Assembly: GCF_006345805.1 (NCBI RefSeq)
Contig: NW_021835723.1
Coordinates: 1 to 39,122, forward strand
Origin: Octopus sinensis
Taxonomy: Eukaryota
Length of the DNA: 39,122 nucleotides
Direction of reading: 5' to 3'
Shown here one piece after another: positions 28,731 through 38,806 of the stretch. The number at the start of each line of letters is the position of its first letter. The first letter of the stretch is position 1. Both the position numbers and the translations under genes were made by a program. The notes below the pieces were generated by a model. That model worked only from the letters and a program-made list of their open reading frames with translations, did no database searches and was not told the DNA's origin.

Positions 28731-29408
28731 TCGAATGCAATGAGTAATTGATCAAAATTACTGGACGATCGTTCCCAAAGACCGTGGCTGCTGTATTAAA
28801 TTCATTTTCAATTCATCGGATAGAAAGCCGACGAAGCCCACTTAGTCTTTCGCTCTTCCTGGATTAGTAAAATAATTGTCATGTACAAGGATGTAATATA
28901 ATAAATTATTGCCTCCAAATTATTGGTGCTTCTGTAATTTTTGGAAAATAACATTTTCAGAACATATCTGACCTTTGTATCGCTAGTCTTGTGTTTCAGA
29001 CAGTAACTCTGAAATTCAAGGAAAAAGAAACATGTGTAAACATGTATATATATTATATATAGAATATATATATTAAATATATATATATATATATATATCT
29101 ATATATATATATATATATAATATATATACATGCGCGTGTGTGTGTGTCAACTATCTATCTCATATGTATTATTACATGTGTATATATATATATATATATA
29201 TATTATGTGAATAGAAAGATGAATATCTTGTAGTAGATTAATCAAAAGATTAACCGATACCTAGTAGCAAAATCACAGCAGTAAACAGCACGGTTGGAGG
29301 TACAACCATATGGTGTTGCAACCGTGCGTTGGTGCGGTAATTGAAATTAAAACATTATTGGTGAATTGAAGAAATGGAGCTGAACGCAGATTGAACAGAA
29401 ATCGTTTA

Positions 29409-29497
29409 CTTCATTCTACACGTGTTTCGAAAGCACAAATTACCAAAATCCGATTGAATAATGGGACCATATTGTGTCTTTCTCTTCAGGAAGAAAA
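29409..29497 (-). ncRNA. Type I hammerhead ribozyme motif (Penelope/retrozyme-like) with extended stem II
   Basis: Minus strand: stem I TTTCTTC, core CTGAAGA, stem II GAAAG(A)CACAA...TTGTGCTTTC, GAA, palindromic stem III ACACGTGT, cleavage-site A (GUA, position 29417), stem I' GAA(T)GAAG. Confidence 0.75.
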
Positions 29498-29627
29498 TAG
29501 GAAATCCGTTGGAAAAACAAAACAGAACCGAGGCGGAGCAAAAACAAATCGAACTATGTCCTAAGAGCCCATGGCGAAAACTGTTTATCAGTGTATGTTG
29601 AGAACCGTATATATATGTATATACATT

Positions 29628-29672
<45 letters not shown>

Positions 29673-29685
29673 ATGCATATATATG

Positions 29686-29760
29686 CACTGTATCTAACAG
29701 AAGTGTGTACACCCCTTAAAATTCCCGTAAAATTGTCATTACTCTAATATCGAACGAAAT
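29686..29760 (+). mobile_element. Possible Tc1/mariner terminal inverted repeat remnant
   Basis: CACTGTATCTAACAGAAGTGTGTACACCCC resembles Tc1-type termini (CAGT...AAAAGTGAGTACACCCC, from memory). No partner TIR seen. Confidence 0.4.
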
Positions 29761-29864
29761 CAAAAGTAATTTATTCTGAATAAAATATATTATACATAAT
29801 ATTTAATACATATATACATAAAGTATAACATCGAAAATACAATACACCAAAAAAGGTCAGCAAT

Positions 29865-29980
29865 GTGTGGTGGGGACAAACGCACACAAACACACTTGCG
29901 TAAGGTGACACACGGTGGTATTGAACCCGACGCCATATGGTTGGGAAGTAAACTTCTCACCAAGCAGTCATACCTGCACC
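29865..29980 (-). mobile_element. Deleted, diverged family B SINE fragment
   Basis: ggggacaaacgcac...ttgaacccgacgccatatggttgggaagtaaacttctcacc. Confidence 0.6.
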
Positions 29981-30054
29981 TCTATATATCTCTCTGTATT
30001 TTCCTCTCCTGTCTCTCTCTCTCTCTCTCTTTCTCTTTCTCTCTTTATATATAT

Positions 30055-30092
<38 letters not shown>

Positions 30093-30274
30093 AGTAGATA
30101 AATGGTACAAGGCACCAATATATACTGGAAAATAGCAATCGATATAAATACGACGCTATTGTATAGCTTCACTGCGTATATACTAGCAAAGACACGTGTG
30201 TTCAGCAAACATGTAAAACAATTTGTCTTACCTCTAGGAAGAATATTAGATAAATGGACAACTTAGAATCAGAT

Positions 30275-30347
30275 AATGCAGGACCGGTTTCTAACTCTTC
30301 AAATACGTTTGACAACGTAAATTTGATTAGTCTTCATCAGCTGCATT
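30275..30347 (-). ncRNA. Type I hammerhead ribozyme motif with perfect 7 bp stem I and extended stem II
   Basis: Minus strand: AATGCAG, CTGATGA, [A GACT AA TCAAA TT TACGTT gtca AACGTA TTTGA AG AGTT A], GAA, ACCGGT, C (GUC, position 30282), CTGCATT. The first stem II pair is an A-A mismatch. Confidence 0.8.
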
Positions 30348-30374
30348 TACCTAGACAAAATTTATATATAAAAT

Positions 30375-30478
30375 GCACTCAAACAGCTTTGGTCAGCCTG
30401 AGGTTATACTTGAAAACACTTAGCCTGTAGGACTGGACGGGGAACCATCTTCTTACCACACAGCCACATCTGCACCCA
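30375..30478 (-). mobile_element. Family B SINE head fragment
   Basis: gctttggtcagcctgagg...aacactt...ggaaccat...cttaccacacagccac. Confidence 0.6.
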
Positions 30479-35338: not shown

Positions 35339-35341
35339 GCC

Positions 35342-35375
<34 letters not shown>

Positions 35376-35420
35376 CAGTAATATTGCATAGTAATTGTTG
35401 CTGTTGGTATCACTGCTGCT
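35015..35420. repeat. Compound (TAG)n/(TTA)n microsatellite with a duplicated junction
   Basis: The junction AAGTGTTA...ATTGCTCTTATTATT occurs at 35071 and 35205. Confidence 0.9.
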
Positions 35421-35710
35421 GTTGCTGTTCTAGCAGTTCTTGGTTTAATTATTTTTTTCCGCTATACTCTGCCTAAACTGACATTTTTAAATATACGATG
35501 CGAGAAAACACATTAACTTTTTTCGCCATATTTGTGTTATTTGCACATATAGTTACATACAGGCATACTTAAACAGACGAACAGAGAGAGTTTAGATAGA
35601 TAGATAAATAGATATATATATATAGAGAGAGAGAGATTGAGACCTGCATATATGTTATTGTACTTAGGCATTATGAAAAGTGCATATATATATATATATA
35701 TATATCTATC

Positions 35711-35757
<47 letters not shown>

Positions 35758-37169
35758 GTATATATATGTATTTATATGTATACATGTATATTAGATATAT
35801 AGGCATATATATGTAATATATATTATATATATACATGTATACATACATATACATATGCATATGTGTGTGTCTCTCTGTGTGTATATTGATATATATATAT
35901 ATATATATATAATATATATACATGCATACAGAAATACATACATGCATACATACATATAATCGTAGACTCACACATGTAGGCGTGTAGGCGTTATTTGATT
36001 TCTCTGGCTCGATTTAGGAAACAACATTTCATAGAGGTCGACACAATACAGCACAGACGTTTCATAAAATTCACATCAAGCGCCGAATCAGTGCAACTTG
36101 GACAAATTTCTGCTATTCCACCTTTCAACTACACCAAAATAACGTCAAATCAATAAGCTAACATTTTAACATACATCGAACTCAAATTGTCCAAGAGGTC
36201 ACTTGACTCTAGTAATAAAAATAAATCTCCTTAGATTTATTAGCGAAAATATTGGCTGTAATATGGCGGAAATGTTTGCTAATAAGTCCATTGTAAAAAC
36301 AAATAAACAAAAAAAAAAAGAAAGTACTAAATGACTTACTATAAAGAGATTTCAGGGTCTCGAGAGTTTTCTGATAATGACAGAATAACCGTTTAATTTT
36401 ATTCGTAAATTCGTTTTCAGGATTAGCCTCTTCTCAGAGGTTAACGTGAAAATATGTACAAGATTAAATGAATGTTCGCACAGTTATTGCTGAATAAATC
36501 TTGAAATAAAGTCTATTTAGGCATATACAGGTATTCCTAAGTTACGCATACAGATGTATATGCATGCATGCATATATATAATATATATATATATATATAA
36601 TTATATATATATATAATATATATGTATGTATAATACATATACATACGTAATACATACACAGACACACACACACATATATATATATGAATATATGCATCTC
36701 TTTCTCTATACATACAGATACACACACACACACACACACACCACACATATATAATATATATATATATATATATAATTATTATTTTTGAGGAAATATAAAT
36801 CCAAACTTACAGGGAAAAAATTCAATTTAGAAATACTAAATCAAATTTCACACTATATAATATATATATAAAAAATTAGAAAACAAAAACACCTTTTATC
36901 AATTCAAAATGAACAATTAAATTACACTAGAAAATTACATTTAATAGAAGTATTAAAATTAAAATAACAATAAAATATCAATGATTATTAAATTGCAAAA
37001 TAAAAAAAATAATACAAACGTATATAAGTGGTAGATTATATAACACGTAAACAATTGGTTATTCTACCAATTATATACGTTTTTACTACATGTGTTCGCC
37101 GGTATCTCCTCAACAATTTCTTTAGCGAATGTTATCGCTGTATGATAGGAAGTTTATCAGACATAAGAC

Positions 37170-37500
37170 ACCCGTCGGTCGCGGATGACCATGGGATTGC
37201 ACCAAGAAAGTTCCCACCTGAGGCACAAGTCCGGGCAAATTTGTTTATGGAAGACCAGCTGTTACTCATGTATACCAGCCACCCTTCTCCAAGCCACCGA
37301 TGTTATTCAAGGGAAATGCAAAAGCCAATGAAGCTTGCCACTAGCGACGCCGCAACTCATTTCCACAGCTGAATGAACAATAGCAACGTGAAATAAAGTG
37401 TTTTTCTGAAGAACACAACATGCAGCCCGGTCCGGAATTCTAACTCACTACCTCATGATAATGAGCCCGATGCACGAACCACTGAACCACGCGCATTCAA
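37170..37500 (-). mobile_element. tRNA-derived SINE with family D-like head and a different tail (family E)
   Basis: 37365-37500 matches 6488-6620 (gcaacgtgaaat...aagaacacaac...gcccggtcc...aaccact...ccacgcg). 37170-37360 does not match the family D tail. Confidence 0.65.
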
Positions 37501-37820
37501 GGTTGATAGACGCCCTATTAAAACATAAGTTAAAAAATGTTTAGGGAATATAAAATAGATAGGGATTTGATCTGAGGTCTTGTGTTGAAACTAAAGCAAT
37601 TTTGGATTAAACGGCACATATTAGCCATTAAAAAGAAATCAAAGACTGCTAACCTTATTTGGCGACTTGTCTAAATTTTCGTCACTAATTCTACGACCTG
37701 GTCATTGACATGACTTCACTACAGTCTTAGTGTGTATCTGAAGCTCTGAGATGCGCCTTCCACGGTGCAGTATAATTTCTCCTTACTTCTATGACCTACG
37801 TTCATATCTGGTGTGTTTCT

Positions 37821-37873
<53 letters not shown>

Positions 37874-37940
37874 TTAACCACACAACTCAATACAAAACAC
37901 CACTAACCCCTATACACTCCCTATACCATTCACATCTCTA

Positions 37941-38004
37941 AATCCAGAACTACTTACCTCCCTTAAAAATAATCCAGAACTACTTAACTCCCTTACAAAT
38001 AATC
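37941..38004. repeat. Tandem duplication of a 30 bp unit
   Basis: AATCCAGAACTACTTACCTCCCTTAAAAAT followed by AATCCAGAACTACTTAACTCCCTTACAAAT. Confidence 0.9.
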
Positions 38005-38054
38005 TTTTTTCTCAGGAACTATTAGACCTGACACCGTGTATTAGCCGGTCTTTT

Positions 38055-38095
38055 CAAAGCGATGAATAGAGTTGCGGAAACCATGGTACGCTTTG
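38055..38095 (+). ncRNA. Degenerate type I hammerhead motif, core lacking CUG and probably inactive
   Basis: CAAAGCG, ATGA, atagagttgcg, GAA, ACCATGGT, A, CGCTTTG. Perfect 7 bp stem I and palindromic stem III, but truncated core and poorly paired stem II. Confidence 0.5.
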
Positions 38096-38806
38096 TTTTC
38101 TCACTTTATTATCATCTTATAATCATCCCATAATAATGGCTTTTATGACTCTTATTACTACCTCAGTCCATCTAAATGTATATATTTGTCGTTACCTGCC
38201 ATAAATAGCCTTTTTTTATTTACAATGTGTATTTTCGTCGATTTTTCATATTTCACCCTTACATTTCCACGGGTATTTTATATTTTCTTTTTGTAACATA
38301 TTTCTACTATACATATATATGTATTAGTACAAATGGGTATATATAGACTTCAGTAGGATAGAAATATCCAAATTAGACTGATTGAATATCTCATAATATT
38401 GCCACAGGCAACAATGAAATTTTAGGTAACAGAGAGACGAGAGAGAGAGAGAGAGGGGGAGGGAGGGGAGGAAGGGGGAGAGAGATAGAGAGTGCGCTGC
38501 ATGTGTAGACGTATACCCGTGATTGTATGCGTAAATATCAATAAGATTTGTATATTAACTTTTAATATTTATAGACATCATTTTCCCCTCTTTATACATA
38601 CATACATGCACATACCTACATACATACATAATTATTTATATATATATATATATATGTGAACAAGAACATATTTTTGTATATATATATATTATTTGTAGAT
38701 ATCCATATATAGATGTGTATATGTATACTCACGCAAACACACAACACAAAACACAACACACATATATGTACAGACACATACACACATATATATATATGTA
38801 TATGTA

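What the first reader, a model, noticed from the sequence alone, without database searches (positions are those of the whole stretch)
29206..38310. Short TA-microsatellite-associated modules, each carrying a hammerhead ribozyme with a different palindromic stem III (retrozyme/Penelope-like system)
Seen: three non-coding modules of ~270-440 bp with no visible similarity to each other (about 29206-29607, 30092-30360 and 37875-38310). Each abuts (TA)n and contains a type I hammerhead layout. Their stem III palindromes are ACACGUGU, ACCGGU and ACCAUGGU. Established: type I hammerheads with a short palindromic stem III occur in Penelope-like element LTRs and metazoan retrozymes and cleave efficiently as dimers. 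Inference: these are several families of non-autonomous, TA-targeting ribozyme retroelements, and the distinct palindromes would restrict dimerisation to same-family partners. No Penelope RT or GIY-YIG ORF is visible in the window, so any mobilisation would be in trans.
Basis: partly seen in the sequence, partly recalled or inferred. Interest (0 to 1): 0.8.

Follow-up and report, generated by a model that had tools for sequence, protein, structure and literature searches.

The report
Penelope transposon ends with variant hammerheads
The three modules are copies of abundant Penelope-type jumping elements that sit in TA repeats and carry predicted self-cutting RNAs, which is mostly known biology, except that one belongs to a group whose predicted ribozyme has an A-U core pair that I found in over 1,000 places in this genome but in none of the papers I could search.

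Summary
The motifs are real, but the interpretation needs correcting. Module A (29197-29607, minus) is the truncated 3' end of a young autonomous Hydra-clade Penelope-like element with an open 895-aa ORF elsewhere in the genome. Module C (37875-38310) is the 3' end of a Neptune-type element and still holds the last codons of its ORF. Only module B (30092-30363) belongs to an ORF-less family: a 430-bp unit in head-to-tail partial tandems. All three families abut (TA)n (3' junctions 96 of 106; background 6-9%), as published for these elements. The stem III palindromes are not family barcodes: each is reused by many unrelated families. The new point is module C's core, AUGAAUA instead of CUGANGA, fixed in its family. 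Genome-wide, 4,346 ACCGGU motifs lack C3 and G8 (control 10); 3,090 are U3:A8 and 1,050 are A3:U8, so 95% restore the Watson-Crick pair. Many sampled ones lie behind Neptune endonuclease genes. Natural U3:A8 is published; natural A3:U8 was not found in my searches, though four key papers were unavailable. Cleavage is untested, and family C itself looks partly decayed (G12 lost in 19 of 30).

The parts
29197..29607 (-). Module A: 5'-truncated 3' pLTR plus about 150-nt tail of an autonomous Hydra-clade Penelope-like element
   Evidence: 96.7% to both pLTRs of the natural full-length copy L092; ORF in L091:1738-4434; 2141 first-look candidates, 40 scored
29409..29497 (-). Hammerhead A: canonical CUGAAGA/GAAA core, long stem II, stem III palindrome ACACGUGU (29425-29418), predicted cut after 29417
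30092..30363 (-). Module B: positions 157-430 of a 430-bp ORF-less unit, likely non-autonomous
   Evidence: 92% to the natural unit in L044; tandem maps; 1783 and 2139 first-look candidates
30275..30347 (-). Hammerhead B: CUGAUGA core, one extra base on each side of stem II, palindrome ACCGGU (30288-30283), predicted cut after 30282
37875..38310 (+). Module C: last ORF codons (37877-37906) and 3' UTR/pLTR of a Neptune-type Penelope-like element
   Evidence: 89-91% to L093 and L063; RVT_1 and GIY-YIG in L093:5708-7396; 2054 first-look candidates
38055..38095 (+). Variant hammerhead C: 7-bp stem I, core AUGAAUA (A3:U8, 38062-38068), weak stem II, palindrome ACCAUGGU (38080-38087), predicted cut after 38088
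29608..29658 (.). (TA)n tract at the 5' junction of A; a further tract lies at about 29181-29205 at its 3' junction
30046..30092 (.). (TA)n tract at the 3' junction of B
37826..37874 (.). (TA)25 tract at the 5' junction of C

Best explanation
Modules A and C are 5'-truncated ends of two high-copy, protein-coding Penelope-like retrotransposon families and module B is a copy of a 430-bp ORF-less unit that is likely mobilised in trans; all three abut (TA)n and carry a hammerhead motif predicted to cut the element RNA as a dimer, and C's motif has an A3:U8 core pair in place of C3:G8. Mechanism: a GIY-YIG endonuclease likely nicks a (TA)n tract and the reverse transcriptase copies the element RNA from a fixed 3' point, usually stopping early (shown: fixed 3' ends, ragged or inverted 5' ends, TA on both sides; inferred from established Penelope biology: nicking and priming). 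The template is longer than one unit or circular (shown for B: up to about 1.6 units head-to-tail across the predicted cut site; circularity inferred). Two hammerheads likely pair through the palindromic stem III (folding prediction only). The 3:8 pair is kept as a Watson-Crick pair while its letters change among Neptune families (shown by counts); activity of A3:U8 cores is inferred, not tested.
For: Full-length pLTR-ORF-pLTR copies of A (L091, L092) and an inverted 5' copy (L097). Hydra marks in the A protein: DKT, RIRW, GxYRDD, CxLC..E, terminal CxH, no CCHH. C protein has RVT_1 and GIY-YIG and a Cys linker KCGRSNCGTC in most copies. B: no ORF in six frames; 12 of 52 distinct loci carry the unit's own end directly upstream and 7 of 52 a 65-77-nt tail of its start (my count). 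(TA) run of 8 or more within 25 nt: 3' junctions A 23/24, B 48/52, C 25/30; 5' junctions 7/15, 26/52, 12/23; background 514/5586 and 852/13611. B and C homodimers fold with intermolecular stems I and III, A with stem III only. In C, A3 in 29/30 and U8 in 28/30; one stem I pair is A-U in 15, G-C in 13, G-U in 2, mismatch in 0 of 30. Genome-wide 4,346 vs control 10; U3:A8 3,090; A3:U8 1,050. Stem I, not part of that pattern, is 5 bp or more in 13 of 20 loci vs 1.5% at random places. A3:U8 occurs in three separate groups on the endonuclease tree.
Against: No cleavage, RNA end or circle is shown; only contigs of runs guessed to be RNA were available. Family C has U in place of G12 in 19 of 30 and U17 in 17 of 30 copies and often a one-pair stem II, so many copies may be dead. 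In 5 of the 20 sampled non-canonical motifs stem I was under 3 bp. The 4,140 motifs are copies of a few families, so they represent few independent changes, and the tree backbone is unresolved. Only the 40 best copies per search were scored, so a coding parent of B could be missed.
Confidence: 0.8

Rival explanations
1. One reading: all three are non-autonomous ribozyme elements, and the different palindromes confine dimerisation to the same family.
For: Isolated palindromes pair far better with themselves (-8.3 to -11.2 kcal/mol) than with each other (-1.1 to -3.4). Palindromes vary among families while staying self-complementary (ACUGCAGU, ACUAUAGU, ACCGCGGU in one lineage). B fits non-autonomy.
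Against: A and C have coding parents. With spacers that exclude the full A, B and C motifs, canonical cores with ACCGGU number 491 (control 117), with ACCAUGGU 394 (control 6), with ACACGUGU 183 (control 9), from many unrelated families. Stem I sequence and covalent tandem linkage would give partner choice without a palindrome code.
Confidence: 0.07
2. The A3:U8 motifs are inactive vestiges: the structure is kept for another role (protein binding, priming, RNA stability) or by descent, and the pairing reflects one or two chance changes amplified by transposition.
For: G12 is replaced in 19 of 30 copies of family C, a sub-family that still amplified. U17 could trap A3, by analogy with the C3-G17 trap described in PMC3884650. 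Naiad elements thrive without canonical hammerheads (PMC8557442). Published Penelope hammerheads cleave weakly in vitro (PMC4209133).
Against: Other A3:U8 families keep G10.1-C11.1, GAAA, the palindrome and their own stem I. Mismatched 3:8 plus G:C cases are only 206 of 4,346. C to A and G to U need two transversions that happen to be complementary.
Confidence: 0.3
3. Module B is the pLTR of an autonomous element whose coding copies were not among the best hits.
For: Only 40 of about 2,100 candidates were scored per search. B's extra base on each side of stem II resembles published Hydra-clade hammerheads.
Against: No B locus of 59 (52 distinct) continues into an ORF; complete units run into their own end. 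The seven loci with Penelope protein hits have them on the other strand, beyond a TA tract or beyond an inverted end.
Confidence: 0.15

Closest known systems
Hydra clade of Penelope-like elements (Craig et al. 2021, PMC8557442), including Hydra-1_Obim from Octopus bimaculoides
   Same: C-terminal GIY-YIG-type domain without CCHH, DKT, RW motif, CxxC and CxH, canonical hammerhead, (TA)n insertions, pLTR and inverted 5' copies.
   Different: Family A is a different family from Hydra-1_Obim (different N-terminus and hammerhead). Unit 3.6 kb rather than under 3 kb; 895 aa against about 700 aa in relatives, with a low-complexity insert; the CxCX5C linker, proposed to aim at (TA)n, keeps one Cys only (present in 106 of 120 homologues); tail about 150 nt against 30-40 nt.
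Neptune clade of Penelope-like elements
   Same: RT then Cys-rich linker then GIY-YIG with Cys pair, 3' hammerhead, microsatellite bias.
   Different: Hammerhead cores A3:U8 or U3:A8 with a two-pair stem II. Five relatives from other hosts in which a 3' motif was found (among 48 loci) had C3:G8.
Non-LTR retrozymes / non-autonomous Penelope derivatives (Cervera and de la Pena 2020, PMC7229834; Li et al. 2026, bioRxiv 10.64898/2026.07.22.740005; MRC1-type elements in PMC8557442)
   Same: Unit of a few hundred bases, no ORF, type I hammerhead, low GC, head-to-tail arrangement.
   Different: B is dispersed as 0.6-1.7 units with Penelope-style inversions and tails; no long arrays among scored copies; circular RNA not shown.
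Hammerhead core variant U3:A8 (Perreault et al. 2011, PMC3088659; Schistosoma Cercyon elements, PMC4209133)
   Same: Covariation of the 3:8 Watson-Crick pair.
   Different: Here the reversed pair A3:U8 also occurs, in 1,050 exact motifs plus family C.

Membership tests
Penelope-like element, Hydra clade (family A) | Single ORF with RT and C-terminal endonuclease, flanked by pLTRs | tested here: met
   L091:1738-4434 open for 899 codons between direct repeats 973-1553 and 4594-5174; L092 likewise. Pfam found nothing in it or in three homologues, so domains are assigned by motifs and 399 homologues.
Penelope-like element, Hydra clade (family A) | DKT, RWK-like motif, no CCHH, CxxC and CxH around the catalytic E and N | tested here: met
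   RWK reads RWL
Penelope-like element, Hydra clade (family A) | CxCX5C linker | tested here: not met
   reads SGCRSRNEY; motif present in 106 of 120 homologues
Penelope-like element, Hydra clade (family A) | Placement in the clade by RT phylogeny with reference elements | not tested
   no tree with published Hydra sequences was built
Penelope-like element, Neptune clade (family C) | RT plus C-terminal GIY-YIG with a CX2-5CxxC linker | tested here: met
   RVT_1 E 4.9e-7, GIY-YIG E 3.7e-6; linker KCGRSNCGTC in most copies. Nematis shares the linker, so Neptune versus Nematis rests on recalled motifs, not on a tree.
Penelope-like element, Neptune clade (family C) | Intact full-length copy with two pLTRs | tested here: inconclusive
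   longest open frame 563 aa among four long loci
Non-LTR retrozyme (family B) | Short ORF-less unit with type I hammerhead | tested here: met
Non-LTR retrozyme (family B) | Tandem repeats with a hammerhead in two or more consecutive units | tested here: inconclusive
   one scored place has positions 165-430 followed by 1-430, hence two motifs; no longer arrays among scored copies
Non-LTR retrozyme (family B) | Expressed as circular RNA | not testable with these tools
   only contigs, none on record as RNA
Type I hammerhead ribozyme (A, B) | CUGANGA / GAAA / NUH core with stems I-III | tested here: met
Type I hammerhead ribozyme (C) | C3, G8, G10.1-C11.1, G12 | tested here: not met
   A3 and U8; G12 in 11 of 30; extra base before GAAA. 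It works like a hammerhead by covariation, but is not a canonical member.
Type I hammerhead ribozyme (all) | Self-cleavage | not testable with these tools
   needs in vitro assay or RNA-end data

The most novel reading that the evidence does not exclude
Neptune-type elements of this genome use a natural, active A3:U8 hammerhead that standard descriptors miss, so that one lineage has run through three of the four Watson-Crick options at the catalytic 3:8 pair (C:G, U:A, A:U), and non-canonical cores are among its commonest ribozymes; hammerhead censuses of animal genomes would then be undercounts.
Probability: 0.45. Interest if true: 0.6.

Novelty: new variant of a known kind. Interest (0 to 1): 0.4.

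Why it matters
What this genome adds is a natural series at the catalytic 3:8 pair, with thousands of copies, intact and decaying families side by side. That makes an open question testable: whether Penelope hammerheads must cleave for the element to move (PMC8557442 calls their function unclear). Family A also tests the proposal that the Cys linker aims at (TA)n, because it has lost that motif yet ends at (TA)n in 23 of 24 copies and is very young (median identity between copies 99.5%).

Tried and rejected
Whole-window Rfam scan: the 150 listed of 216 hits were microsatellite artefacts, none a hammerhead. Pfam does not recognise Hydra-type proteins in this copy. Expression: no RNA holder listed; contigs of four runs guessed to be RNA cover 28-30 of 30 bins of the A unit and include an end-to-start joint, but the same joint exists in genomic DNA, so it shows neither a circle nor cleavage. 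5' ends at the predicted cut site of B (unit position 238): one upstream piece starts at 239 (L123), others at 165 to 395; anecdotal. Coding partner of B: not found among 59 B loci or 45 loci of similar families. A3:U8 outside this genome: a metagenome pattern scan gave 120 loci, 4 with stem I of 4 bp and none with a Penelope protein hit, read as chance; 48 prokaryote-binned contigs with related proteins showed only C3:G8 motifs. A pattern for non-canonical cores with any 8-base stem III had high background (734 vs 426). A pair count on alignment A1 failed on a malformed structure string and was replaced by scripts. Two look-ups of earlier findings returned nothing. The 184-bp tandem at 28172-28662 gave no hit in the motif scans.
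Full report
Observation. The window is microsatellite-rich animal DNA from a 2.72-Gb genome. I infer an octopus from recalled repeat types, a named homologue from Argonauta and the similarity of family A to the published Hydra-1_Obim; this is not confirmed. 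The three motifs are at the stated places. A: core 29489 (minus), palindrome ACACGUGU, cut site 29417. B: core 30340 (minus), ACCGGU, 30282. C: core 38062 (plus), ACCAUGGU, 38088. My three criteria gave 1, 1 and 2 hits in the window and none in any of 20 shuffles. Rfam recognises only B, below the gathering score. The modules are unrelated to each other.

Each module is a high-copy family. First-look candidates were 2141 (A), 1783 (B) and 2054 (C); only the 40 best were scored and 30 fetched per search, so these are not copy numbers and the samples lean to near-identical copies. Median identity between fetched copies is 99.5%, 94.2% and 92.8%.

Family A is autonomous. Sixteen of 30 loci hold open frames of one protein next to the module (my count). 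L091 has an 899-codon open frame between two direct repeats, L092 a frameshifted copy between two 0.9-kb repeats, and L097 an inverted 5' copy. The protein has DKT, RIRW, GxYRDD, CxLC..E and a terminal CxH and lacks CCHH, as described for the Hydra clade (PMC8557442 section 11). It lacks the CxCX5C linker found in 106 of 120 homologues and is about 190 residues longer than most. Copies end at two fixed points about 150 nt apart; the window's copy has the longer end.

Family C is also the end of a coding element. At least 22 of 30 loci carry the thumb/endonuclease region, L093:5708-7396 scores RVT_1 and GIY-YIG, and the window copy starts with the last nine codons. The Cys linker suggests Neptune; I did not separate it from Nematis by a tree.

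Family B has no ORF. Its unit is 430 bp. Of 59 loci, 52 distinct after removing duplicates, 12 have the unit's own end directly upstream, 7 have a 65-77-nt tail of its start, and several have inverted 5' pieces; none continues into a coding frame. The longest scored tandem is about 1.6 units and crosses the predicted cut site, so the template was an uncut multimer or a circle. This matches non-autonomous Penelope derivatives and non-LTR retrozymes (PMC7229834 passages; bioRxiv 10.64898/2026.07.22.740005 parts 1-3 of 5). Loci found through similar motifs also look short and mostly ORF-less.

(TA)n. A TA run of 8 or more within 25 nt lies at 23/24, 48/52 and 25/30 3' junctions and at 7/15, 26/52 and 12/23 5' junctions, against 9.2% and 6.3% of background positions (junctions at locus edges and duplicate rows were dropped: 26 of 30 A loci and 52 of 59 B loci were kept). 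Enrichment on both sides favours insertion into existing tracts over a synthesised tail. The preference is published for Hydra and Naiad and hypothesised to depend on the Cys linker in Neptune.

Palindromes. They favour self-pairing: homoduplexes -8.3 to -11.2, heteroduplexes -1.1 to -3.4 kcal/mol; B and C fold as symmetric dimers. Dimer cleavage through a palindromic stem III is established (PMC4209133 parts 1-2 of 4; PMC6765202 passages). But the palindromes are not family-specific. With spacers too short for the full A and B motifs and a core that excludes C, canonical cores number 491 with ACCGGU (control 117), 394 with ACCAUGGU (6) and 183 with ACACGUGU (9), visibly from many families. 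The barcode idea fails in its strict form.

The variant core. In family C, positions 3-9 read AUGAAUA: A3 29/30, U8 28/30. C3 and G8 form a Watson-Crick pair in the active ribozyme (PMC3884650 passages), and A3:U8 would restore it. One stem I pair is A-U in 15, G-C in 13 and G-U in 2 copies, probably one inherited change. A related element in L181 (57% protein identity) has U3:A8. A genome-wide pattern allowing any base but C at 3 and any but G at 8, with G..C stem II and ACCGGU, gave 4,346 matches against 10 for the reversed control. Of these 3,090 are U3:A8 and 1,050 A3:U8; 206 remain for G:C and six mismatches. In 20 fetched loci stem I, which the pattern did not ask for, was 5 bp or more in 13 (random 1.5%) and under 3 bp in 5; 13 of the 20 had a hit to the family C protein, two of them on the opposite strand. 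On a tree of 21 endonuclease-region segments (chosen from 44), family C (A:U), a U:A group and a second A:U group are separate, with L197 (A:U) on a long branch; the backbone is open, so the number and order of switches are unknown. The counts are copies of a few families, not independent events.

Against activity: family C has U for G12 in 19 of 30 copies, U17 in 17 of 30 (a possible A3-U17 trap, by analogy), an extra base before GAAA and often only one pair in stem II. The window's own copy has lost the second stem II pair. The other A3:U8 families look intact. No data here show cleavage; the laid contigs show only presence of the A unit in runs guessed to be RNA.

Literature on the variant. 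Natural U3:A8 is reported (PMC3088659 passages; PMC4209133). That passage also says that covarying 3:8 ribozymes were shown active in vitro. A3:U8 was not found in full-text searches for A3-U8, A3U8, C3A with G8U, Neptune with covariation, or octopus with hammerhead, nor in the alignment of 56 Penelope motifs (supplement parts 1-2 of 3) or the Hydra/Chlamys motif table. Lunse 2017, Przybilski and Hammann 2007, Nelson and Uhlenbeck 2008 and Arkhipova 2017 were not held and may report it; bioRxiv supplements are closed. From memory, engineered A3:U8 cleaves but more slowly than C3:G8. The O. vulgaris repeat paper lists recently active Penelope families and does not mention ribozymes (PMC13282606 passages). 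Outside this genome I found only C3:G8 next to related proteins (five loci among 48) and chance matches in metagenomes.

Verdict. The worthwhile residue is an abundant A3:U8 hammerhead core, with covariation support and no test of activity, and a young Hydra family without its Cys linker. New variant of a known kind; interest 0.4.

Noticed in passing
L091:973-5174; L099:4933-7560: Very young Hydra-type family with an open 895-aa ORF, a Ser/Asn/Gly-rich insert in the linker and only one Cys of the CxCX5C motif, yet ending at (TA)n in 23 of 24 copies.
   Followed up: partly
G000, listed (L151, L155, L156, L216-L225): A lineage with repeats spaced about 355 bp in which both the 3:8 pair (C:G, U:A) and the stem III palindrome (ACCGGU, ACUGCAGU, ACUAUAGU, ACCGCGGU) change while stem II stays similar.
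   Followed up: no
L130-L159, L172-L194: Many further short hammerhead families ending at (TA)n, mostly without a nearby ORF, often with inverted 5' copies and one extra base on each side of stem II.
   Followed up: partly
L046, L143, L019, L105: Other palindromes in single motifs: ACAAUUGU, ACGAUCGU, ACUAAUUAGU, ACAUAUGU.
   Followed up: no
window 28172-28662: 184-bp unit in 2.7 tandem copies, 92% alike; no hammerhead hit in my scans; not searched in the genome.
   Followed up: no
L346-L393: Penelope-like RT genes, several with 3' hammerheads, lie in contigs filed under prokaryote genomes; likely host DNA contamination.
   Followed up: no
window 17726-18058: A 107-aa frame on the plus strand resembles a fragment of a LINE (L1/Tx1-like) reverse transcriptase; label recalled, not tested.
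   Followed up: no
L059, L108, L111, L112, L119, L181: Different Penelope families often lie within 1-2 kb of each other, as expected if they share (TA)n tracts; modules A and B in the window are 485 bp apart.
   Followed up: partly
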